A stretch of DNA of 43,805 nucleotides, taken from contig JAOPWP010000087.1 in NCBI GenBank assembly GCA_025965615.1, forward strand, positions 1-43,805. Direction: 5' to 3'. The notes beneath the pieces were generated by a model. It was not told where the DNA came from and searched no databases. It saw only the letters and a program-made list of their open reading frames with translations. Source of the DNA: Frankiales bacterium (GTDB taxonomy: Bacteria; Actinomycetota; Actinomycetes; Mycobacteriales; SCTD01). The translations under genes were made by a program, and so were the position numbers. Numbering within the stretch: position 1 is the first letter of the stretch; each line of letters opens with the position of its first letter. This document shows, piece by piece, positions 25,822 through 33,413 of the stretch.

Positions 25822-26492
25822 GAGGCGGGGAGCTCGACCTCGGTCAGGGCCTGACGGTCGTACGCCACCTGGCAGAAGCCGTGGTTGCAGTAGCCGCGCG
25901 GGTTCTTGTGGAGGTACTGCTGGTGGTACGCCTCGGCGTAGTACCAGGGGCCCGCCTCGGCGAACGGCCTGATCTCGGTGGTGATCTCGCCGAAGCCGGC
26001 GGCGGACAGGGCCGCCTGGTAGCGCTCGGCCGAGGCGCGCACAGCGGCCAGCTGGGCCTCGGTCGTGGGGTAGACCGCGGTCCGGTACTGCGTGCCGTGG
26101 TCGTTTCCCTGCCCGTTCAGCTGGGTCGGGTCGTGGTTCTCCCAGAAGGCCTTGAGCAGCGTCTCGACGTCGGTCCGGGACGGGTCGTAGACGACCATCA
26201 CGGCCTCGGTGTGGCCGGTGCGCCCCGTGCAGGTCTCCTCGTAGGTGGGGTGCGGCGTGAACCCGCCGGTGTAGCCGGCGGCCGTGGTGAACACGCCCGG
26301 GATCTGCCAGAAGAAGCGCTCGGCGCCCCAGAAACAGCCCATGGCGACGTAGAGCACCTCGGACCCCTCGGGCCAGGGCGGGGTGAGCGGGGTGCCGAGC
26401 ACCTCGTGGCGGTCGGGGACCGGCAAGGGCGTCGACCGGCCAGGAAGGGCCGTCTCGGGGGTGGGCAGGTCGGGCTTGCTGCGCAGCCACAT
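25818..26492 (-). CDS. msrA: Peptide-methionine (S)-S-oxide reductase
   Basis: [38 protein letters not shown]. Confidence 0.97.
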
Positions 26493-26523
26493 GGTGAGCT
26501 CCAGGGTCGGGGGTCCCCCATAG

Positions 26524-26550
26524 CAACCCGCTCGGGTGCCCCGCCGTTCC
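26524..26550 (-). promoter_or_regulatory. SigR/SigH-type ECF promoter of msrA
   Basis: Minus strand GGAAC-N18-GTTG, matching the GGAA(T/C)-N18-GTT consensus; msrA is a known SigR/SigH regulon member. Confidence 0.78.
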
Positions 26551-26643
26551 CCACGGCGCGCCCATCGTGGTCACGTGCAGCGGCGGGGGCCCGGCAGGGC
26601 CGCTCGCGCTCGCTCTTCACGCCCTGCGCAGGTGGAGGAAGGG

Positions 26644-28137
26644 CTAGTCCGCTCCCCGGTCGCCCTTCCAGCGCGCCAGCTTTCCGCCCCGGGAGACAGC
26701 CCGCAGCCGGGCCTCGGTCTCGTCGCGGACCGCTCCGGTCGTCACGACCAGGAGCTGGTCGCCATGGGCGAAGTAGGTGTGCTGGTCCGGCACGATGGTC
26801 CGTCCGCCGCGGACGATCAGCGTGACGTGGGCCCCGACGGGCAGTCGCAGCTCCTCGACGTAGACGCCGTGCAGCTTCGAGGTGGGGGCGACCTTGAGCT
26901 GCAGCAGGTCCGCGCGCAGCTGCTCGAGCGAGGCGACCTCGATCTCGGTGTCCATGGCCAGGTTGCTGTCGACCACGCCGAGGCGACGACCGACCCAGGG
27001 CAGGGTGGGCGCCGTGACCAGGGTGTAGACGACGACCAGGACGAACACGACGTCGAGGACGCGTTCGGCCCCCACGACGCCCTCCGTGATCGGGATGGTG
27101 GCGATGACGATCGGCACCGCCCCCCGCAGCCCTGCCCACGACAGGAACACCTGCTCCTTCCAGGGCAGCCGGAAGGGCAGCGCCGACAGCGCGACAGCCA
27201 TCGGCCTCGCGAGGAACGTGGCTACCGCGCCGATGAACAGGGCCTCGGGCACGGCTGAGAGCAACCGGTCGGGGCTGACGAGCAGGCCGAGGAGCACGAA
27301 CAGGCCGGCTTCTGCGAGCAGCGCCGTCGAGCTGGCGAAGCCGAGGACGGCCCGCCGGTGGGGCAGCGGCGAGTTGCCGAGCACCAGAGCCGCTACATAG
27401 ACGGCGAGAAAGCCGGACAGGTGGAGCGCCTGGCCAGAGGCGAAGGCCAACAGGCACAGGGCGACCGTCGCCAGCGGGTACAGCCCGGAGGTGGGCAGCG
27501 CTGCCCGCACCAGGAGCTCCCGTCCGAGGCGCCCGACGAGGAGACCGAGGGCGACGCCGCCGACGAGCTCCACCAGGACCGTGCCCACTCCCGTCAGCAC
27601 CGAGGTGCGCCCCCAGGCATCGGACGATGCCAGCACGACCAGCACCACGACCGGAGCGTCGTTGAGCCCCGACTCGGCCTCGAGCACCGAGCTGATCCGG
27701 CCCTGCAGGGGCAGCCGGCGGAGCACGCTGAAGACGGCCGCGGCATCCGTCGACGCCACGACGCTGCCGAGGATCACGGCCGTACGCATGTCGGCGCCGA
27801 GGACCAGGACGACCAGGCCGGCGACCACTGCCACGCTGATCGCGACCCCGACGGTGGCGAGGACGACGGCGAAGGGCAGCACCGGCCGCACGACCGACCA
27901 GCGTGTCGTCAGCCCTCCCTCGGCGAGGATCAGCGCGAGAGCCAGGAGCCCGAGCTCGGCCGTCAGGCCGTAGTCGGAGAACTGGATGCCGAGACCGGCC
28001 TCACCGACGACGAGCCCGACCGCCAGGTAGATCAGCAGCGACGGCAGCCCCGTCCTGCTCGCCAGCCGCACGGCGACGACCGCGACGAGCAGCAGGGCGG
28101 ACGATCCGAGCAGGATCGTGTTGAAGTCGCCCTCCAC
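26644..28137 (-). CDS. cvrA: Potassium/proton antiporter (CPA1, NhaP2/CvrA) with C-terminal TrkA-C domain
   Basis: ASTDAAAVFS, LEAESGLNDAP, SWAGLRGAVPI. Confidence 0.92.
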   Translation of the reverse strand: MEGDFNTILLGSSALLLVAVVAVRLASRTGLPSLLIYLAVGLVVGEAGLGIQFSDYGLTAELGLLALALILAEGGLTTRWSVVRPVLPFAVVLATVGVAISVAVVAGLVVLVLGADMRTAVILGSVVASTDAAAVFSVLRRLPLQGRISSVLEAESGLNDAPVVVLVVLASSDAWGRTSVLTGVGTVLVELVGGVALGLLVGRLGRELLVRAALPTSGLYPLATVALCLLAFASGQALHLSGFLAVYVAALVLGNSPLPHRRAVLGFASSTALLAEAGLFVLLGLLVSPDRLLSAVPEALFIGAVATFLARPMAVALSALPFRLPWKEQVFLSWAGLRGAVPIVIATIPITEGVVGAERVLDVVFVLVVVYTLVTAPTLPWVGRRLGVVDSNLAMDTEIEVASLEQLRADLLQLKVAPTSKLHGVYVEELRLPVGAHVTLIVRGGRTIVPDQHTYFAHGDQLLVVTTGAVRDETEARLRAVSRGGKLARWKGDRGAD

Positions 28138-28194
28138 GCCCCGCCCTCCTGACCCGCCCCGCTCCGCCCGACCCCTCGCCCGACCGTCGCAGGA

Positions 28195-30774
28195 CTAGCT
28201 CCTCGCGCTCCCCGCCCGTGCCGGCCGGGGCGGCGGCCGACGCTTGGCAGGACGGCGCTGCGCCGAGCTCGACGTCTTGCGCTTGGGCATCGGCGGCGGC
28301 GCGGAGTTGCGCTGCTCGAACAGCAGCACCAGCGGCGACGCCACGAACGCCGAGGAGTAGGTGCCGACGAACAGGCCGATCAGCAGGGCCAGGGCGAAGT
28401 CGGTCAGCGAGCGGCCACCGAGGACGGTCAGGGCCCCGAGGATGAAGAACGCGCCGATGCCGGTGTTGATCGTACGAGGCGCCGTCGCGATGATGGCCGA
28501 GTTCACCACCTGGGCAAGCGGTTTCGTGCGGTTCTTCGCCCACGTCTCGCGGATGCGGTCCATCGTGACGACCGAGTCGTTGACCGACACACCGATGATG
28601 GTCAGCGCCGCCGCGAGGAAGATCCCGTCGATCGGCTTGCCCAGCCAGGCGAAGATGCCGAGGACGATCACCACGTCGTGGAACATCGCGAGCACGGTGC
28701 CCGCCGCGAAGGTCCACCGGAACCGCACCGCGAGGTAGGCCAGCTGGGCGAGCAGGGCGATGGCGAGGGCCAGGATCGCCTTCGTGCGCAGCTCGTCGCC
28801 GAGCGTCGGGCCGATCAGGTCATCGCTGTTGATGCGGACGTCGCCGCCGACGCTCGCCAGCCCGGCCCGCACCTGCTCGACCTGGGCGTCGTCGATGTTG
28901 CCGGTGCGCACGGTGATGTTCTCGCCGTTGCTCTCCTGCACGACGGCGGTCGGGAAGCCCGCGTCGCTGACGGCCCGGCGGGCGTCCGCCACGGAAACGC
29001 TCTGGCTCGTCGCGTACTCCACGACGCGGCCGCCGGTGAACTCCACCCCGAAGTTGAAGCCCCGGACGAACATGCCCGCCACGGCCACCAGGAGCACGGC
29101 ACCGGTGATGACGAGGTAGCGCTTGCGCCACTGCATCAGGTCGGGCTGCCGGCGCTCGAGCCACACGCGGAACCGGCCGAGCGAGGCGAGGCCCGTGATC
29201 CCCGGTCGCTTGTTCAGCAGCCCGCGCTTGAGGCCGAACTCGGTGAAGACCCGGGTGACCAGCAGCGCCGAGACGACGGAGGCGAGCACGCCGATCACGA
29301 GGGTGACACCGAAGCCCCTGACCGGCCCGGCGGCCAGCAGGAACAGCAGGCCCGCGGCCAGCAGCGTCGTGATGTTGGAGTCGGCGATCGCGCTGAACGC
29401 CTTGGCGAAGCCGTTGTCGAGCGCCGGCATGAGCCGCTTGCTGCGCGAGGCGGCGTACTCCTCGCGGGCACGTTCGAAGACGAGGACGTTCGCGTCGATC
29501 GCGAGGCCGGCCGACAGCAGCAGACCACCGAGCCCGGGGAGCGTGAGCGTCGCACCGAGGGCGACCAGCGCGCCGTAGGAGATGAGGCCGTAGCTGGCGA
29601 GCGCCACGGCGGCGAGGAACCCGACGAAGCGGTAGACGACGACCAGGAAGATCGTCGTCAGGACGAGGCCGATGATCCCGGCGCGGATGCTGGCGTCGAT
29701 CGCCTCCTGACCGAGGGTCGGGCCGACGGTGCTGCGAGAGATGATCTCGACCGGTACGGGCAGGGAGCCGCCCTTGATGAGAACGGCGAGCTCGGTGCCC
29801 GTCTCGAGGGTGAAGTCGCCCGTGATCTGGGTGCTGCCGCCCTGGATGCCCACGCCGCACTGCACGTTGGGGTTGGGGGGCGGGGAGGTGATCGCCTTGC
29901 CGTCGAGCACGATGGCGACGCGCCGCTTCGGGTCGCCGATCGGCTGGCAGGCCGCCTGCGCCGTGAGCTCCTCCCACTGACGACCGCCGTCCCCCTGGAA
30001 CTCGATCGTGACGAAGCGACCGGTCCCGGTCTGGGGGTCGACGCCGGTCGAGGCGTCGCCGACGCCCTCGCCGGTGAAGACCGCCGGTCCGACGACGATC
30101 GGCCGGCCGTCCTCGTCGAGGATCGTCTGCTGCTGGGTCGGGTCGAAGGCCGTCGGAGGGGTGGGCGGGGCGTCCGGAAGGATCGGGACCTCCTCCTCGA
30201 CCGGGGCCGGCGGAACGACGGGAGCGGCCGGGTCGACGGGAGGGGACGGGGCCTGGTCCACCGGAAGCCCGACCGCCGCGCGGTTCTGCGGCGCAGGAGC
30301 AGGCACGGCCCCCGGCGCGGGGACGGTGGCCGGGGCGGGGACGGTGGCCGGAGCGGGGGCTCCGGAGGGCGTCTGCCCGCTGGGGTCGACCACCTCGGGC
30401 TGGCGTCCTGCCGTCGGGTCAGGCGCGGCCAGGACGGCGTGGAACGTGAGCTGCGCGGTCTTGCCGAGCTGGTCTGCGGCCCTGGCTGCGTCCTGCACGC
30501 CTGGCAGCTCGACGATGATGCGGTTGCTGCCGGACCGGGCGAGCGTCGGCTCGGACACGCCGAGGGCGTCCACGCGGCGGCGGAGCACCTCGAGAGCACG
30601 ATCGGTGGCCTCGGCGTCTGCCTCGGTCGTGGGCGAGTCCTTGGTCTCCAGGGTGATGGACGTGCCACCCCGCAGGTCGAGGCCCAGCTTGGGTTCGCGG
30701 TCGATCGCGAAGAAGGCCGACAGGCCGAGGATCAGCAGCGCCGCGAGGGCGCGGAGGACGGGAGGACGGGTCAC
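28195..30774 (-). CDS. secDF: Protein translocase SecDF fusion
   Basis: LGLDLRGG, RIIVELPG, VGPTLG, IDANVLVFER, IADSNITT, GVEFTGG, HDVV, SVNDSVV..DRIRE, GTYSS. Confidence 0.95.
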   Translation of the reverse strand: MTRPPVLRALAALLILGLSAFFAIDREPKLGLDLRGGTSITLETKDSPTTEADAEATDRALEVLRRRVDALGVSEPTLARSGSNRIIVELPGVQDAARAADQLGKTAQLTFHAVLAAPDPTAGRQPEVVDPSGQTPSGAPAPATVPAPATVPAPGAVPAPAPQNRAAVGLPVDQAPSPPVDPAAPVVPPAPVEEEVPILPDAPPTPPTAFDPTQQQTILDEDGRPIVVGPAVFTGEGVGDASTGVDPQTGTGRFVTIEFQGDGGRQWEELTAQAACQPIGDPKRRVAIVLDGKAITSPPPNPNVQCGVGIQGGSTQITGDFTLETGTELAVLIKGGSLPVPVEIISRSTVGPTLGQEAIDASIRAGIIGLVLTTIFLVVVYRFVGFLAAVALASYGLISYGALVALGATLTLPGLGGLLLSAGLAIDANVLVFERAREEYAASRSKRLMPALDNGFAKAFSAIADSNITTLLAAGLLFLLAAGPVRGFGVTLVIGVLASVVSALLVTRVFTEFGLKRGLLNKRPGITGLASLGRFRVWLERRQPDLMQWRKRYLVITGAVLLVAVAGMFVRGFNFGVEFTGGRVVEYATSQSVSVADARRAVSDAGFPTAVVQESNGENITVRTGNIDDAQVEQVRAGLASVGGDVRINSDDLIGPTLGDELRTKAILALAIALLAQLAYLAVRFRWTFAAGTVLAMFHDVVIVLGIFAWLGKPIDGIFLAAALTIIGVSVNDSVVTMDRIRETWAKNRTKPLAQVVNSAIIATAPRTINTGIGAFFILGALTVLGGRSLTDFALALLIGLFVGTYSSAFVASPLVLLFEQRNSAPPPMPKRKTSSSAQRRPAKRRPPPRPARAGSARS
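30300..30360 (-). repeat. 18-bp tandem repeat encoding PAPATV units in a SecDF Pro-rich insertion
   Basis: ggggacggtggccggggc / ggggacggtggccggagc; protein PAPATVPAPATVPAPGAVPAP. Confidence 0.65.
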
Positions 30775-30780
30775 AGCGGA

Positions 30781-30852
30781 GTCTCCAGAGGGGGCGGCCT
30801 AGGGCCGGGGCGGCAGGGTCACGTCGGTGCCTGCCGCCGGTGGAGGACCCCG
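30781..30852 (-). promoter_or_regulatory. Anti-SD/SD RNA structure coupling the leader ORF to secDF translation
   Basis: mRNA GUCCUCCA (Gly-Pro-Pro codons, 30848-30841) is complementary to UGGAGAC (secDF SD, 30787-30781). It encloses a 9-bp perfect stem GGCGGCAGG/CCUGCCGCC (30838-30830 / 30817-30809). Confidence 0.6.
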
Positions 30853-31266
30853 GCTGCTGCGAGCGCCCGTCGCCGGTGACGCCGGGGCCTCACGAGGTGC
30901 GGCCGACAGTGACGGGGACGGGCCCCGGGGCGCGTCGGCGCTCCCCCGTCCGGGCCCGTCGGAGTCCGGCGGGTGCACCGGCGCCGGGACCCCCGCGAGG
31001 GGGACCGCGAGCGCTTCGAGGGTCCGCAGCGGGGCCTCTTGGTCAGAGGCGCTCAGCCCACCCCCCCGTCCCGTCGCCGGGACGGCAGACGCGGTGCCAG
31101 GTGTCGTTGCGGCGGTGACCGGCGCACTCCGCCCGGGCGACCGGGCGAGGTCCCACCCGCCGCAGGCCAGGACGAGGAGGGCCATCACCAGCGCGAGGAC
31201 GGCGCGGATGCCCGAGCTGTCAGGCGCGCGCGTGCTGCGCCGGCTCGGGTCCACGAACCAGGACAC
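30799..31266 (-). CDS. Putative ribosome-arrest leader peptide upstream of secDF (ApdA-like, RGPP motif)
   Basis: N-terminal hydrophobic segment (AVLALVMALLVLAC), low-complexity Pro/Ala/Gly linker, RGPP near the C-terminus (30852-30841), stop 24 nt before the secDF start. Confidence 0.75.
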   Translation of the reverse strand: MSWFVDPSRRSTRAPDSSGIRAVLALVMALLVLACGGWDLARSPGRSAPVTAATTPGTASAVPATGRGGGLSASDQEAPLRTLEALAVPLAGVPAPVHPPDSDGPGRGSADAPRGPSPSLSAAPREAPASPATGARSSRGPPPAAGTDVTLPPRP

Positions 31267-31354
31267 TACGTGCGGGCGAGCCCTTCAGGAGGCGTTCGGC
31301 AGCAGATCAGGCACGCCGACGGTCCTGGCCCCGGGTCGGCGTGACGGATCGGGC

Positions 31355-32968
31355 CTAGCTGCTGGCTGCCACGAGGGGCTCGAGCACGGCATCGGGGTGG
31401 TCGCGCTGGACGCGGGCGAGCCGCCAGTTGCCGGCGAACAGCGCCAGCAGCGCGCCGTCGCTCGTCCGCTCCAGCACCTCGACCCCACTCTCGCGGTCCA
31501 GGACCTGTGCCCACTGGCGGTCGGTACGGCGCGCCATGGAGTACTCGAGGCGGTCCAGGCGCACGGCAGCGGAGAACTCCCCGGCCATCCGGTGCTCGGC
31601 CACCTCGAACTGCATGGGGCCGACCGCTGCGAGCACCGGCGCCTGGTCTCCCCGCAGGTCCGAGCGCAGCACCTGCACCGTGCCCTCCTGCTCGAGCTGC
31701 TCGATGCCGCGGCGGAACTGCTTGTAGCGCCCGGAGTCCACGGCGCGGCAGACCGCGAAGTGCTCGGGGGCGAAGCTCGGGATGGGCGGGAAGGTGACGG
31801 GCTCGTCGACGTAGAGGCTGTCACCCACCCGCAGCGCGGCGGCGTTGACGAGCCCCACCACGTCGCCCGGGTAGGCGCGGTCCACGGTCTCGCGCTCGCG
31901 ACCGAACACCTGCTGGGCGTACTTCGTCGCGAAGGGCTTGCCGGTCGAGGAGTGCGTGACGACCGAGCCCCGCTCGAAGACCCCGGAGCAGACCCGCACG
32001 TAGGCGAGGCGGTCGCGGTGGGCGGTGTCCATGCCGGCCTGGATCTTGAAGACGAAGGCGCTGAAGGGCTTGTCGAGCGAGCGGGGAACCCCCTCGACGT
32101 CCGGTCGCGGCCCGGGCGGTGGAGCGACGGCCAGCAGGGTGTCGAGCAGCTGGCGCACGCCGAAGTTGAGCACCGCCGAGCCGAACAGCACCGGGGTGGT
32201 CACCCCGTCGAGGAAGGTGGACTGCTCGTGGACCTGACCAAGGGCCTCGAGCAGCTCGGTCTCCTCGACCGCGGTGTGCCAGGCCTCCCCCTCCTGCTCG
32301 GCGGCACGCTCGGCAGGCACCCGCTCCTCCGGCGCGATGGTCGCTCCACCCGCGGTCCTGGTGAACCGGAGGAAGTCACCGGTCGAGCGCTCGAGCACGC
32401 CCCGGAAATCACCGGCGATGCCGACCGGCCAGGTGAGCGGCGTCGGCTCCAGCCCGGTGCGGTCCCGGATCTCGTCCATCAGCTGCAGGGCCTCGAGGCC
32501 CGGCCGGTCCCACTTGTTGACGACCGTCAGCACCGGGATCCCCCGGTGGCGGCACACGTCGAACAGCTTCATGGTCTGCGGCTCGAGCCCCTTCGCCGCG
32601 TCGAGGAGCATCACGGCGCAGTCGACCGCGGCCAGCACGCGGTAGGTGTCCTCGGAGAAGTCGGCGTGGCCCGGGGTGTCGACGAGGTTGATCACGCAGT
32701 CGCCGTAGCCGAACTGCAGAGCGGCGGAGCTGATCGAGATGCCGCGCGCCTTCTCCATGTCCATCCAGTCGGACACCGTGCTCTTGCGGCCCGCCTTGCC
32801 GTGGATGGCACCGGCCTGCTGGATCACCCGGGCGTGCAGGGCCAGCGCCTCGGTCAGGGTCGACTTGCCGGCGTCGGGGTGACTGATGACGGCGAAGGTC
32901 CGCCGGCGGACCGCCTCGGTCGTGGCGAGGTCGGTGCTGGCGGGGCGCTCTGCATCCGCCACGGTCAT
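31355..32968 (-). CDS. prfC: Peptide chain release factor 3
   Basis: RRRTFAVISHPDAGKST, SDWMDMEKARGISI, DTPGHADFSEDTYR, NKWD, AVGPMQFEV; TACGAT-N6-ATG. Confidence 0.96.
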   Translation of the reverse strand: MTVADAERPASTDLATTEAVRRRTFAVISHPDAGKSTLTEALALHARVIQQAGAIHGKAGRKSTVSDWMDMEKARGISISSAALQFGYGDCVINLVDTPGHADFSEDTYRVLAAVDCAVMLLDAAKGLEPQTMKLFDVCRHRGIPVLTVVNKWDRPGLEALQLMDEIRDRTGLEPTPLTWPVGIAGDFRGVLERSTGDFLRFTRTAGGATIAPEERVPAERAAEQEGEAWHTAVEETELLEALGQVHEQSTFLDGVTTPVLFGSAVLNFGVRQLLDTLLAVAPPPGPRPDVEGVPRSLDKPFSAFVFKIQAGMDTAHRDRLAYVRVCSGVFERGSVVTHSSTGKPFATKYAQQVFGRERETVDRAYPGDVVGLVNAAALRVGDSLYVDEPVTFPPIPSFAPEHFAVCRAVDSGRYKQFRRGIEQLEQEGTVQVLRSDLRGDQAPVLAAVGPMQFEVAEHRMAGEFSAAVRLDRLEYSMARRTDRQWAQVLDRESGVEVLERTSDGALLALFAGNWRLARVQRDHPDAVLEPLVAASS

Positions 32969-33002
32969 GGGTCCATCGTAGGTGCGGCCTACGCTCGCCG
33001 GC

Positions 33003-33413
33003 ATGACACCGATCGGGTACGACCACAAGGGCTTCGACGCACTGCTCGGCCTGCAGATCACCTCCGCCACCGAGGACGAGGTCCGCGCCGAGTTCACGGT
33101 GCGCCCCGAGCTGCTCCAGCCGTACGGCCTGCTGCACGGCGGCGTGCTCTGCTCCGTCGTCGAGACGGTGGGGAGCGTTGCGGGTGCCGTCTGGTACGGC
33201 GACCGCGGCAACGTCGTCGGCACGAGCAACCACACGAACTTCCTGCGAGCGGTGCGCGAGGGGAAGCTCACGGCGGTGGCGACTCCGATCCACCGCGGAC
33301 GCACCCAGCAGCTGTGGTCGATCGACGTGCGGGACGAGCAGGACCGCCTCGTCGCGCGCGGCGAGCTGCGCGTCGCGAACCTGCCGACCGGCAACCCGGT
33401 CACCGAGGTCTAG
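33003..33413 (+). CDS. PaaI family thioesterase
   Basis: QPYGLLHGG..VETVGS, HRGRTQQLW; TACGCT-N7-ATG. Confidence 0.9.
   Translation: MTPIGYDHKGFDALLGLQITSATEDEVRAEFTVRPELLQPYGLLHGGVLCSVVETVGSVAGAVWYGDRGNVVGTSNHTNFLRAVREGKLTAVATPIHRGRTQQLWSIDVRDEQDRLVARGELRVANLPTGNPVTEV

What the first reader, a model, noticed from the sequence alone, without database searches (positions are those of the whole stretch)
30774..31266. Ribosome-arrest secretion monitor upstream of secDF: RGPP motif codons double as the anti-Shine-Dalgarno
Seen: a 155-aa ORF ending 24 nt before secDF has an N-terminal signal/TM segment ending in a lipobox-like VLAC, a ~100-aa disordered linker and RSSRGPPP near the C-terminus. 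The G-P-P codons are GGT CCT CCA, rare A/T-ending codons in this GC-rich DNA, and are complementary to the secDF SD (UGGAGAC). A perfect 9-bp hairpin lies between them. Known: SecM, MifM, VemP and actinobacterial ApdA/ApcA are force-sensing arrest peptides upstream of sec/yidC genes, and RAPP/RGPP-like motifs cause stalling. Inference: stalling at RGPP melts the structure and induces SecDF (and possibly the downstream cvrA antiporter) when export slows. The class is described, but this RGPP, possibly lipoprotein, variant with a readable switch would usually be annotated as hypothetical.
Basis: partly seen in the sequence, partly recalled or inferred. Interest (0 to 1): 0.8.

Follow-up and report, generated by a model that had tools for sequence, protein, structure and literature searches.

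The report
Stalling leader peptide upstream of secDF
A small exported leader peptide that very probably stalls its own ribosome at an Arg-Gly-Pro-Pro motif to switch on the neighbouring protein-export gene secDF; it is a new member of an already described actinobacterial family (ApdA), so it is interesting but not new in kind.

Summary
They are a 155-codon ORF (30799-31266), a 24-nt gap to a fused secDF, RSSRGPPP near the C-terminus, codons GGT CCT CCA and a perfect 9-bp hairpin.

An R[AG]PP motif sits near the C-terminus of the upstream ORF in 16 of 16 orthologous loci. The peptides are otherwise only 21-32% identical. This fits the published bioinformatic definition of ApdA, the actinobacterial arrest peptide upstream of secDF.

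In this genome the motif codons are predicted to pair with the secDF Shine-Dalgarno sequence, and a neighbouring helix pairs with the GUG start. Only about 1% of synonymous recodings give equal masking.

This masking is not predicted in most same-genus relatives. It recurs in distant ApdA lineages: 13 of 41 lineages tested. A 2021 paper reported finding no such structure for ApdA.

The lipobox is not conserved (1 of 15 peptides). The rare-codon argument is only partly specific. No RNA data cover the ORF.

This secDF is the only one found in the genome.

Verdict: a new member of a known kind, with a readable SecM-like switch. Stalling itself is untested.

The parts
30799..31266 (-). apdA-like upstream ORF: 155 codons plus TAG stop, GTG start
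   Evidence: GC is highest at codon position 3 in this frame (0.859). There is no Pfam or NCBIfam family above cut-off. The orthologous ORF carries an R[AG]PP motif in 16 of 16 related loci.
31159..31203 (-). N-terminal hydrophobic export signal or signal-anchor (residues 22-36, AVLALVMALLVLACG), preceded by basic residues
   Evidence: this is the best 15-aa hydropathy window, mean 2.85. The alignment shows the segment conserved in position in 15 peptides. The Cys is present only in this one.
30841..30852 (-). Arrest motif codons R139 G140 P141 P142 (CGG GGT CCT CCA). The expected stall has P141 in the P site and P142 in the A site.
   Evidence: Sequence. The stall position is inferred from toeprints of family members, reported in a passage of PMC10987492 and a passage of PMC7897499.
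30841..30851 (-). Anti-SD strand (GGGGUCCUCCA, C30845 bulged), predicted to pair with 30778-30787
   Evidence: Pair table. The probability that the SD partner lies in the stall footprint is 1.00.
30856..30862 (-). Second masking strand inside the uORF (codons about 136-138), predicted to pair with 30771-30777, which holds the secDF GUG start
30809..30838 (-). Perfect 9-bp stem-loop between anti-SD and SD. Its 5' arm starts 3 nt after the A-site codon.
   Evidence: The core stem is kept in 16 related sequences: 79.9% of cells paired against 41-54% when slid, covariation 0.225 against 0.152 shuffled (5 of 500), and a GC-to-AU compensatory change in 3 sequences.
30778..30787 (-). secDF ribosome-binding region UGGAGACUCC (GGAG at 30783-30786, 8 nt before the GUG)
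   Evidence: The GGAG column is kept in most of the 16 aligned leaders.
28195..30774 (-). Fused secDF, the regulated gene and the only SecD/SecF-family gene found in this genome
   Evidence: Pfam and NCBIfam matches. A PF02355 search of the whole genome gives two matches, both inside this ORF. The genome is 99.52% complete.

Best explanation
The ORF encodes an ApdA-type secretion-monitoring arrest peptide.

Proposed sequence of events:
1. The N-terminal hydrophobic signal takes the nascent chain to the Sec translocon.
2. About 104 residues later the ribosome reaches R139-G140-P141-P142. It stalls with Pro141 (CCU) in the P site and Pro142 (CCA) in the A site.
3. Pulling by active export releases the stall.
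4. On free mRNA, the motif codons and the codons just 5' of them pair with the secDF Shine-Dalgarno sequence and GUG start, which keeps secDF translation low.
5. A ribosome held at the motif covers this strand and the 5' arm of the adjacent hairpin. The ribosome-binding site is then freed and SecDF synthesis rises when export is slow.

Because this is the only SecDF found in the genome, the loop would be homeostatic autoregulation rather than induction of a back-up paralogue.

Shown here: the anatomy, conservation of the motif at the peptide level, and the predicted masking helix with its dependence on codon choice.
Inferred: stalling, release by force, and induction.
For: Position and architecture:
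- The ORF is a same-strand ORF 24 nt upstream of secDF, 155 aa, with no known family.
- It has a hydrophobic N-terminus and a 104-aa spacer to the P-site Pro. Full-length relatives have spacers of 80-118 aa.

Motif conservation:
- R[AG]PP is kept 5-13 residues from the C-terminus in 16 of 16 orthologous loci: 7 RGPP and 9 RAPP.
- All positions vary synonymously. Arg is CGG, CGC, CGT or AGG, and all four Pro codons occur.
- The peptides are only 21-32% identical to this one. The adjacent SecDF N-terminus is 64-85% identical.
- The motif is also found upstream of fused secDF in named Streptomyces, Aeromicrobium, Kibdelosporangium, Thermocatellispora, Pseudokineococcus and Cellulomonas records, 17 of 42 named loci.
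- It is found in 13 of 13 loci of the family around Kibdelosporangium: 12 RAPP/RGPP and 1 RSPP.
- A genome-wide six-frame scan for a hydrophobic N-terminus plus a C-terminal R[AG]PP gave 3 hits. Only this one looks like a real ORF.

Published basis:
- ApdA arrests with the third motif residue in the P site and needs Pro in the A site (PMC7897499, passages).
- 398 ApdA uORFs with RAPP-like motifs are reported in Actinobacteriota (PMC10987492, section 25).
- RAPP and RGPP give robust arrest that EF-P does not relieve (PMC12992588, abstract).

Switch:
- Fold -64.5 kcal/mol, z = -2.82; pair table.
- SD unpaired probability is 0.00 on free mRNA. It rises to 0.27-0.40 only when a ribosome is placed with its P site -4 to +6 codons from the stall site.
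- 1 of 100 and 2 of 400 synonymous recodings mask as well.
- The same design is predicted in distant lineages. The share of SD pairing that falls in the stall footprint is 0.7 or more in 13 of 41 lineages. In 10 of those 41, at most 5% of synonymous recodings reach the observed value.
- Helices between A-P-P codons and the SD are seen in L082, L083, L087 and L091.
Against: - There is no experimental or expression evidence. The one RNA run laid covers only prfC (31474-31685) and not the ORF.
- SD masking by the footprint is not predicted in most same-genus relatives. In one search only this locus of 15 has a high share. In several relatives the SD is more open than in synonymous recodings: L014 and L012, in 99-100% of variants.
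- With 16 close lineages examined, one hit at the 1% level could be chance about 15% of the time.
- With the footprint blocked, the SD opens only partly (0.27-0.44) in equilibrium folding.
- Folding predictions in 73% GC RNA are noisy.
- PMC7897499 (discussion passage) states that structure prediction found no SD-sequestering hairpin for ApcA, ApdA or ApdP.
- That paper also reports that RAPP alone does not suffice for arrest and that upstream residues matter. The residues upstream of the motif here are poorly conserved.
- No promoter or terminator was located, so co-transcription of the ORF with secDF is assumed.
Confidence: 0.6

Rival explanations
1. It is a true ApdA-type arrest peptide, but control of secDF does not work by unmasking the SD. 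Possible alternatives are translational coupling or re-initiation across the 24-nt gap, protection of the mRNA from RNases, or blocking of Rho loading on the C-rich spacer. The masking helix seen here would be a lineage-specific accident.
For: - Footprint:SD pairing is not predicted in most same-genus relatives and in 28 of 41 lineages overall.
- PMC7897499 (passage) suggests that ApdA may use a different mechanism because no SD hairpin was predicted.
- The conserved element in the genus is a stem-loop that does not include the SD.
- The uORF stop lies only 24 nt before the start, so a terminating ribosome would reach the SD region.
Against: - In this sequence the helix depends on codon choice at about the 1% level.
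- The same design recurs independently in Streptomyces, Kibdelosporangium-family, Thermocatellispora and Cellulomonas loci.
- For a related RAPP-like uORF of Alteromonas, arrest-dependent unmasking of the secDF2 SD was shown experimentally (PMC10987492, section 11 passages).
- No terminator-like site was found.
Confidence: 0.27
2. The ORF encodes an ordinary small exported protein or lipoprotein with a function of its own. The RGPP is an incidental feature of a Pro/Ala/Gly-rich tail.
For: - VLAC fits a relaxed lipobox pattern (recalled pattern; sequence).
- RAPP and RGPP strings are common in alternative frames of this GC-rich DNA (one search lists several out-of-frame ones).
Against: - The body of the peptide evolves fast (21-32% identity), while only the signal and the C-terminal [SG]R[AG]PP are kept.
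- The Cys is found in 1 of 15 peptides.
- The position right before secDF is kept in 16 of 16 loci.
- No protein family matches.
Confidence: 0.06
3. The ORF is not translated. The region is a non-coding leader of secDF whose open frame is a by-product of high GC content.
For: - High-GC DNA carries many long spurious ORFs (one search lists 52 in 9 kb).
- GC3 of this ORF (0.859) is lower than in neighbouring genes, 0.93-0.95.
- No clear SD lies at the usual distance before its GTG.
Against: - The frame, the hydrophobic N-terminus and the motif are kept across 16 loci with synonymous variation at every motif codon.
- GC is highest at position 3 in this frame and not in the two shifted frames.
- The start context (M-S/T/F, basic residues) is shared with relatives.
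Confidence: 0.03

Closest known systems
[quoted passage not shown] Prototype: Amycolatopsis japonica ApdA, 128 aa, R120-A121-P122-P123. PMC7897499; family of 398 uORFs in PMC10987492.
   Same: - Immediately upstream of a fused secDF on the same strand.
- Size within 80-200 aa, with an N-terminal hydrophobic export signal and a long hydrophilic spacer.
- R-[A/G]-P-P a few residues from the C-terminus.
- Actinobacterial host.
- Fast-evolving body with a conserved C-terminal motif.
   Different: - RGPP rather than RAPP here. RGPP variants clustering with RAPP uORFs are reported (PMC10987492, passage).
- 13 residues follow the motif here, against 5 in the prototype. The sub-lineage of this locus (here plus 4 relatives) lost the TGA and extended the ORF by 8 codons.
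- The papers describe the target as presumably a secondary SecDF2. Here it is the only SecDF found.
- The 2021 paper reports no predicted SD-sequestering hairpin. Here one is predicted.
- I could not see whether this lineage is among the 398, because supplements are closed.
SLIV_07330 of Streptomyces lividans, a RAPP/RGPP arrest peptide upstream of secDF (PMC12992588)
   Same: It is an actinobacterial uORF of secDF with the same motif class. The paper reports motif-dependent arrest for its S. lividans candidates (passage). The Streptomyces loci I fetched (L052, L053, L073) carry RAPP and an anti-SD just 3' of it.
   Different: - The peptide body differs.
- In Streptomyces the anti-SD lies 3-12 nt after the motif rather than in the motif codons.
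- I did not compare with SLIV_07330 itself.
SecM of Escherichia coli (secretion monitor upstream of secA)
   Same: The logic is the same: an export signal, a C-terminal arrest with Pro in the A site, a helix that masks the SD of the downstream sec gene, and a stalled ribosome that opens it (PMC10987492, introduction passage). Like SecM with SecA, the peptide here would control the cell's only copy of its target.
   Different: - The motif context differs (FxxxxWIxxxxGIRAGP) and the target is secA.
- SecM is proteobacterial and there is no sequence relationship.
- Here the anti-SD overlaps the arrest codons themselves.
uDF_RQH_Enterobacterales of Alteromonas naphthalenivorans (PMC10987492, section 11)
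   Same: It is a RAPP-like uORF of secDF2 for which a stem-loop masks the SD. Arrest-dependent induction and its relief by stem mutations were shown there (passages). It is the best experimental precedent for the switch proposed here.
   Different: It is a gammaproteobacterial, unrelated peptide. Its SD-masking stem-loop is described as a separate stem-loop 2.
VemP of Vibrio alginolyticus (upstream of secDF2)
   Same: It is a force-sensitive arrest peptide that controls a SecDF gene (PMC7897499, introduction passage).
   Different: Its arrest motif is proline-independent and its nascent chain is helical. It switches between Na+- and H+-driven paralogues, whereas only one SecDF is found here.

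Membership tests
ApdA (bioinformatic definition of PMC7897499 section 14 and PMC10987492 section 25) | ORF immediately upstream of secDF, on the same strand | tested here: met
   The stop is 24 nt before the secDF GTG. secDF is confirmed by Pfam and NCBIfam.
ApdA (bioinformatic definition of PMC7897499 section 14 and PMC10987492 section 25) | Small protein of 80-200 aa with no assigned function | tested here: met
   155 aa. Pfam gives 0 families. NCBIfam gives nothing above cut-off; the best match is 17.8 bits against a cut-off of 37.
ApdA (bioinformatic definition of PMC7897499 section 14 and PMC10987492 section 25) | N-terminal signal sequence or transmembrane segment | tested here: met
   Basic residues are followed by a hydrophobic window from residue 22, mean hydropathy 2.85. 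This is a hydropathy heuristic only. No SignalP or TMHMM was available, so cleavable signal and signal-anchor cannot be told apart.
ApdA (bioinformatic definition of PMC7897499 section 14 and PMC10987492 section 25) | Hydrophilic domain of at least 40 residues after the signal | tested here: met
   104 residues separate the end of the hydrophobic window from the P-site Pro.
ApdA (bioinformatic definition of PMC7897499 section 14 and PMC10987492 section 25) | C-terminal RAPP-like motif conserved among homologues of related species | tested here: met
   R[AG]PP is present in 16 of 16 orthologous loci, 17 of 42 named loci, and 13 of 13 loci in a second family, one of them RSPP.
ApdA (bioinformatic definition of PMC7897499 section 14 and PMC10987492 section 25) | Host in Actinobacteriota | tested here: met
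   The nearest named records are Mycobacteriales and Actinomycetota metagenome-assembled genomes, up to 70% identical over the SecDF N-terminal half.
ApdA (functional definition) | Arrests its own translation with the third motif residue in the P site and Pro-tRNA in the A site; arrest abolished by R, A/G or P substitutions | not testable with these tools
   Needs toeprinting or in vitro translation. It is inferred only from family members (PMC7897499, passages).
SecM | FxxxxWIxxxxGIRAGP arrest motif, upstream of secA | tested here: not met
   The motif is RGPP, no F/W/I spacing pattern is seen in the peptide, and the target is secDF. It works like SecM but is not a member.
Bacterial lipoprotein | Lipobox with an invariant Cys at the end of the signal peptide, kept among orthologues | tested here: inconclusive
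   VLAC fits a relaxed lipobox (pattern recalled). The Cys column holds T, H, A, F, W or G in the other 14 aligned peptides, so the Cys is present in 1 of 15.

The most novel reading that the evidence does not exclude
In this species one 11-nt stretch does two jobs. It encodes the arrest motif (G-P-P) and it is the anti-Shine-Dalgarno strand that masks secDF, so the stalled ribosome sits exactly on the switch. The same design, with the anti-SD inside the stall footprint and often made of the A/G-P-P codons GCU/GGN CCU CCN, appears to have arisen or been kept in about a quarter to a third of ApdA lineages. This would give ApdA the SecM-like mechanism that the 2021 paper could not find. Pro-Pro codons resemble the 16S anti-SD (CCUCC), which may have pre-adapted RxPP motifs for this role. 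Here the loop would autoregulate the cell's only SecDF.
Probability: 0.4. Interest if true: 0.45.

Novelty: new member of a known kind. Interest (0 to 1): 0.35.

Why it matters
- ApdA-type peptides are known to stall, but how they control secDF in their native hosts is stated as open (PMC7897499, discussion passage).
- This locus and about ten others found here give a concrete, testable switch, in which synonymous anti-SD changes should de-repress secDF.
- It is also a case in which the monitored SecDF is the only one found in the genome. That turns a presumed back-up inducer into a homeostat.
- For annotation, the ORF matched no protein family in Pfam or NCBIfam. It could instead be labelled an ApdA-family arrest peptide.

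Tried and rejected
1. RNA evidence. One search for runs and one laying of reads (runs X7, X1, X2, X5). The only RNA run holds one contig over prfC (31474-31685) and nothing over the ORF, so it says nothing about transcription either way. The DNA runs may include the source sample and are not independent.

2. Promoter and terminator scan of 26400-31700. It found 0 promoter-like and 0 terminator-like sites. The consensus used is of little value in a 73% GC actinobacterium. Folds of the prfC-uORF spacer (z = 0.60) and the secDF-cvrA spacer (z = -1.86) settled nothing about transcription units.

3. The idea that every ApdA locus has a strong stem-loop right after the motif with the stop codon in its loop. 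I rejected it as a general rule. The 44 nt after the motif fold less stably than other windows of the same ORFs (mean -13.3 against -17.4 kcal/mol, mean z against shuffles -0.48, 30 loci). Only the genus-level stem-loop has comparative support.

4. Lipoprotein reading. The Cys is not conserved.

5. The reading that the rare codons were chosen for the anti-SD.
- It holds against neighbouring genes, and CCT is over-represented at the P-site Pro: 7 of 30, against 30 of 457 other Pro codons, Fisher p = 0.005 with related sequences. In a second family CCT is found in 5 of 13 loci, against 0-5% in the adjacent gene.
- CCA is equally enriched (7 of 30), and first codons of other Pro-Pro pairs are A/T-ending in 12 of 51. 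The anti-SD cannot be the only cause.

6. Plain duplex energies between footprint and SD windows were noisy: rank at or below 0.05 in 7 of 30 loci, median rank 0.27. I replaced them with partition-function and synonymous-recoding tests.

7. In one search the secDF start of L055 was mis-set to an ATG. I corrected it to the TTG that follows the SD.

8. Genome-wide scan for further TM-plus-R[AG]PP ORFs. Of the 3 hits, the other two look like out-of-frame junk. Only one yidC is found, so no sign of an ApcA-type pair.

9. Rows dropped.
- L033-L035 were dropped because their C-terminal peptides are the same as those of L005, L012 and L007.
- L053 and L073 were left out as near-identical to L052.
- L014 and L043 are cut by contig ends and were kept for RNA analysis but not for peptide length.
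- The 25 of 42 named loci without the motif were not folded.

10. Literature. Three searches found no paper in the library that links RAPP/RGPP codons with an anti-SD. The arrest-peptide papers listed have 0 occurrences of 'anti-SD' or 'anti-Shine-Dalgarno'. Supplements are closed. Supplementary Fig. 4 and Data 2-4 of PMC10987492 and Table S7 of PMC7897499 may list this lineage or show leader structures.

What I saw of each paper:
- PMC7897499: passages.
- PMC10987492: passages and section 25.
- PMC12992588: outline, abstract and two passages.
- Preprint 10.64898/2026.10.26.761930: passages.
- PMC10951233 and PMC10951299: search listing only.

11. Unpublished genomes. G021 and G030 are counted in the tallies. 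No motif, fold or codon claim rests on them. L023 from G030 was only listed by tblastn.

The peptide is low-complexity, and the family is defined by motif and position.

Full report
OBSERVATION. The features are real and lie on the minus strand.
- An ORF runs from the GTG at 31266 to the TAG at 30801-30799 (155 aa). The next gene starts 24 nt later, at the GTG at 30774.
- That gene is a fused SecDF of 859 aa. It matches Pfam SecD_SecF_C, SecD_1st, SecDF_P1_head and Sec_GG and NCBIfam NF009583 at 907 bits against a cut-off of 721.
- Upstream lies prfC (RF3_C and GTP_EFTU domains, stop at 31355). Downstream lies a Na_H_Exchanger plus TrkA_C gene (26644-28137).
- The peptide begins with basic residues and a hydrophobic stretch from residue 22 that ends in VLAC. 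A Pro/Ala/Gly/Ser-rich linker follows, and the peptide carries RSSRGPPP at 136-143.
- R139-G140-P141-P142 are encoded as CGG GGT CCT CCA at 30852-30841.
- The frame looks coding. GC is highest at codon position 3 (0.859), though lower than in the neighbours (0.93-0.95).

RNA STRUCTURE IN THIS WINDOW. The 121 nt from 30875 to 30755 fold at -64.5 kcal/mol, z = -2.82, and 1 of 200 shuffles folds as well. The pair table shows:
- a 10-bp helix between 30841-30851 (C30845 bulged) and 30778-30787, which holds GGAG at 30783-30786;
- a 7-bp helix between 30856-30862 and 30771-30777, which holds the GUG start;
- the perfect 9-bp stem-loop 30830-30838/30809-30817 between them;
- a small 5-bp hairpin around the TAG.

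Further tests of this structure:
- In the partition function the SD is unpaired with probability 0.00, and all of its pairing falls within a 28-nt window around the expected P site.
- I placed a ribosome-sized block at successive codons. The SD opens (0.27-0.40) only for P-site positions -4 to +6 codons around P141, and closes again once the block has moved past the anti-SD.
- Among 400 synonymous recodings of codons 129-155 drawn from the codon usage of the neighbouring genes, 0.5% place 90% or more of the SD pairing on the footprint, and 1.3% fold as stably. A second test gave 1 of 100.
- The footprint size (-12 to +15 nt from the first P-site base) is my assumption. It is in line with the 15-17 nt toeprint distance quoted in PMC7897499.

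RELATIVES: THE MOTIF.
- The first 125 residues of SecDF find orthologues of 64-85% identity in 13 of 19 genomes of the same genus and in two further genomes.
- In all 16 loci, this one included, an ORF ends 24-63 nt before secDF and carries R[AG]PP 5-13 residues from its end (7 RGPP, 9 RAPP) within [SG]R[AG]PPxxxGT.
- Every motif position varies synonymously, which points to selection on the peptide.
- The peptides are only 21-32% identical to this one. The shared parts are the hydrophobic segment with LLGxGxx[DE] and the C-terminal motif.
- The spacer from the hydrophobic segment to the P-site Pro is 85-118 aa in the close full-length relatives and 104 aa here.
- Among named records, 17 of 42 loci with a related fused secDF have such an ORF. 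They include Streptomyces, Aeromicrobium, Kibdelosporangium, Thermocatellispora, Pseudokineococcus and Cellulomonas.
- The other 25 of 42 do not. Two fairly close ones, L036 and L037, have prfC directly followed by secDF.
- In the family around Kibdelosporangium, 14 of 61 genomes hold the fused secDF. All 13 newly fetched loci have R[AGS]PP near the end of an upstream ORF.
- In the window's own genome a six-frame scan for this architecture gave 3 hits, of which only this one is credible.

WHAT IS KNOWN.
- PMC7897499 defined ApdA as small ORFs (80-200 aa) immediately upstream of actinobacterial secDF, with an N-terminal export signal and a conserved C-terminal sequence. It showed that A. japonica ApdA arrests with Pro122 in the P site and Pro123 in the A site, dependent on R-A-P (passages).
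- PMC10987492 counted 398 ApdA uORFs with RAPP-like motifs in several actinobacterial orders, Mycobacteriales among them. It lists RGPP among the motifs that cluster with RAPP (section 25 and passages).
- PMC12992588 reports that RAPP and RGPP give robust arrest that EF-P does not relieve, and that a S. lividans uORF of secDF is among seven arrest peptides (abstract and passages).
- All bioinformatic criteria are met here (see the membership table). I therefore file the ORF as an ApdA-family member. Arrest itself cannot be tested with these tools.

RELATIVES: THE SWITCH. The 2021 paper says that structure prediction found no SD-sequestering hairpin for ApcA, ApdA or ApdP. My comparison gives a patchy picture.
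- Within the genus, only this locus shows strong footprint:SD pairing. L007 shows it weakly (share 0.23). In several relatives the natural SD is more open than in recodings.
- CUCC overlapping the motif codons occurs in 5 of the 16 close loci.
- Outside the genus the design recurs. One search gives a share of 0.74-1.00 for L018, L043 (Cellulomonas), L052 (Streptomyces), L055 (Kibdelosporangium, start corrected to TTG) and L063 (Thermocatellispora). One search gives 0.75-1.00 for 7 of 13 loci of the Kibdelosporangium family.
- In total, 13 of 41 lineages have a share of 0.7 or more. In 10 of the 41, at most 5% of synonymous recodings reach the observed share.
- In L082, L083, L087 and L091 the helix is formed by the A/G-P-P codons themselves (GCU or GGA, CCU, CCN) pairing with GAGGAG or GGAGG.
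- These lineages are related and the counts are not independent. Even so, the positives fall in different families.

THE STEM-LOOP.
- The 9-bp hairpin has a 6-bp core kept in all 16 aligned leaders.
- 79.9% of cells are paired, against 41-54% when the partner is slid. Covariation is 0.225 against 0.152 in shuffles (5 of 500 reach it). A GC-to-AU double change occurs in three sequences.
- In 11 of 16 leaders the uORF stop (TGA in 10, TAG in 1) lies in its loop. In this locus and four others the stop is lost and the ORF runs 8 codons further.
- Its role is unexplained. In this window it would bring the anti-SD and SD strands together.
- As a general property of ApdA loci, extra structure after the motif is not supported.

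CODONS AND LIPOBOX.
- GGT, CCT and CCA are rare in neighbouring genes. But 14% of this ORF's codons end in A/T, and another run of three such codons exists.
- At the P-site Pro, CCT and CCA are each used in 7 of 30 loci, against 6.6% and 3.5% of other Pro codons. Anti-SD selection therefore explains at most part of the bias.
- The Cys of VLAC aligns with T, H, A, F, W or G in the other 14 peptides. The lipoprotein idea is not supported.

MECHANISM AND RIVALS.
- Most likely (0.6): a force-sensitive arrest at RGPP holds a ribosome on the anti-SD strand and the 5' arm of the hairpin. This frees the SD and GUG of secDF when export is slow.
- The best experimental precedent for this switch is the Alteromonas RAPP-like uORF of secDF2 (PMC10987492, section 11).
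- Main rival (0.27): the peptide arrests, but control runs through coupling across the 24-nt gap, mRNA stability or Rho. The helix here would be a lineage-specific accident. One hit at the 1% level among 16 close lineages has about a 15% chance of arising by chance.
- Minor rivals: an ordinary exported protein (0.06) or a non-coding leader (0.03).

CONTEXT.
- PF02355 finds only this gene in the window's genome, which is 99.52% complete. It also finds only the fused gene in the two other genomes of the genus that were sampled (G003, G019).
- Other genera of the family hold split secD plus secF, or both kinds.
- The peptide would therefore control the only SecDF found, unlike the SecDF2 setting presumed in the papers.
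- The antiporter gene follows secDF in 12 of 13 genomes of the genus, but not in G024 or G037. Co-regulation is untested.

LIMITS.
- No expression data cover the ORF.
- The promoter scan is uninformative.
- The folding statistics are thermodynamic predictions in very GC-rich RNA.

VERDICT. The locus is a new member of a known kind. It has a readable SecM-like switch that is worth a bench test.

Noticed in passing
window 28195-30774 (-); genomes G000, G003, G019: The fused secDF is the only SecD/SecF-family gene found with PF02355 in this genome (99.52% complete) and in the two other sampled genomes of the genus. Other genera of the same family hold split secD plus secF, or both kinds. The genus seems to have lost the canonical pair.
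   Followed up: partly
L036 and L037, about 80 nt before position 2501: Two fairly close relatives (SecDF N-terminal half 60-61% identical) have the prfC stop 75-79 nt before secDF and no upstream ORF. The leader peptide is patchy even among near kin.
   Followed up: partly
window 30809-30838 (-) and the aligned columns of L004-L018: A conserved stem-loop lies just 3' of the arrest motif. The uORF stop codon lies in its loop in 11 of 16 leaders. A similar stem (an ACAGG/CCUGU-type arm pair) is seen in Kibdelosporangium L055. Its role is unknown.
   Followed up: partly
window 26644-28137 (-): A cvrA/NhaP2-like cation/proton antiporter gene (Na_H_Exchanger plus TrkA_C) starts 57 nt after secDF. 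It follows secDF in 12 of 13 genomes of the genus but not in G024 or G037. SecDF is driven by proton-motive force, so the pairing may be meaningful.
   Followed up: partly
window about 30130-30430 (-), SecDF residues about 117-215: A Pro/Ala-rich low-complexity insert of about 100 aa lies between the SecD_1st domain (58-114) and the P1 head (220-340) of SecDF. It contains repeats of the PAPATVPAP type.
   Followed up: no
window 31312-31343 (-): A perfect 9-bp inverted repeat with a 14-nt loop lies between the prfC stop (31355) and the uORF start. It might end the prfC transcript, but the fold of the region is not exceptional (z = 0.60).
   Followed up: partly
window 30915 and 31233: Metagenome contigs of runs X1, X2 and X5 carry G>A at 30915, which is P118S in the uORF linker. 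X2 also carries T>C at 31233. The contigs that span 30772-30862 show no change there. These runs may include the source sample.
   Followed up: no
motif P-site Pro codon in L003-L074 and L081-L093: The Pro codon expected in the P site is CCT or CCA in 14 of 30 loci, and CCT in 5 of 13 further loci. The background is at most about 8%. CCA cannot form an anti-SD, so another cause is possible, such as tRNA-Pro isoacceptor choice or avoidance of C runs.
   Followed up: partly
window 31355-33403 (-): The ORF listed for prfC (682 aa from a GTG at 33403) is probably over-long. The GTPase domain starts at residue 167, and a 143-aa ORF on the opposite strand (32982-33413) overlaps its 5' part.
   Followed up: no
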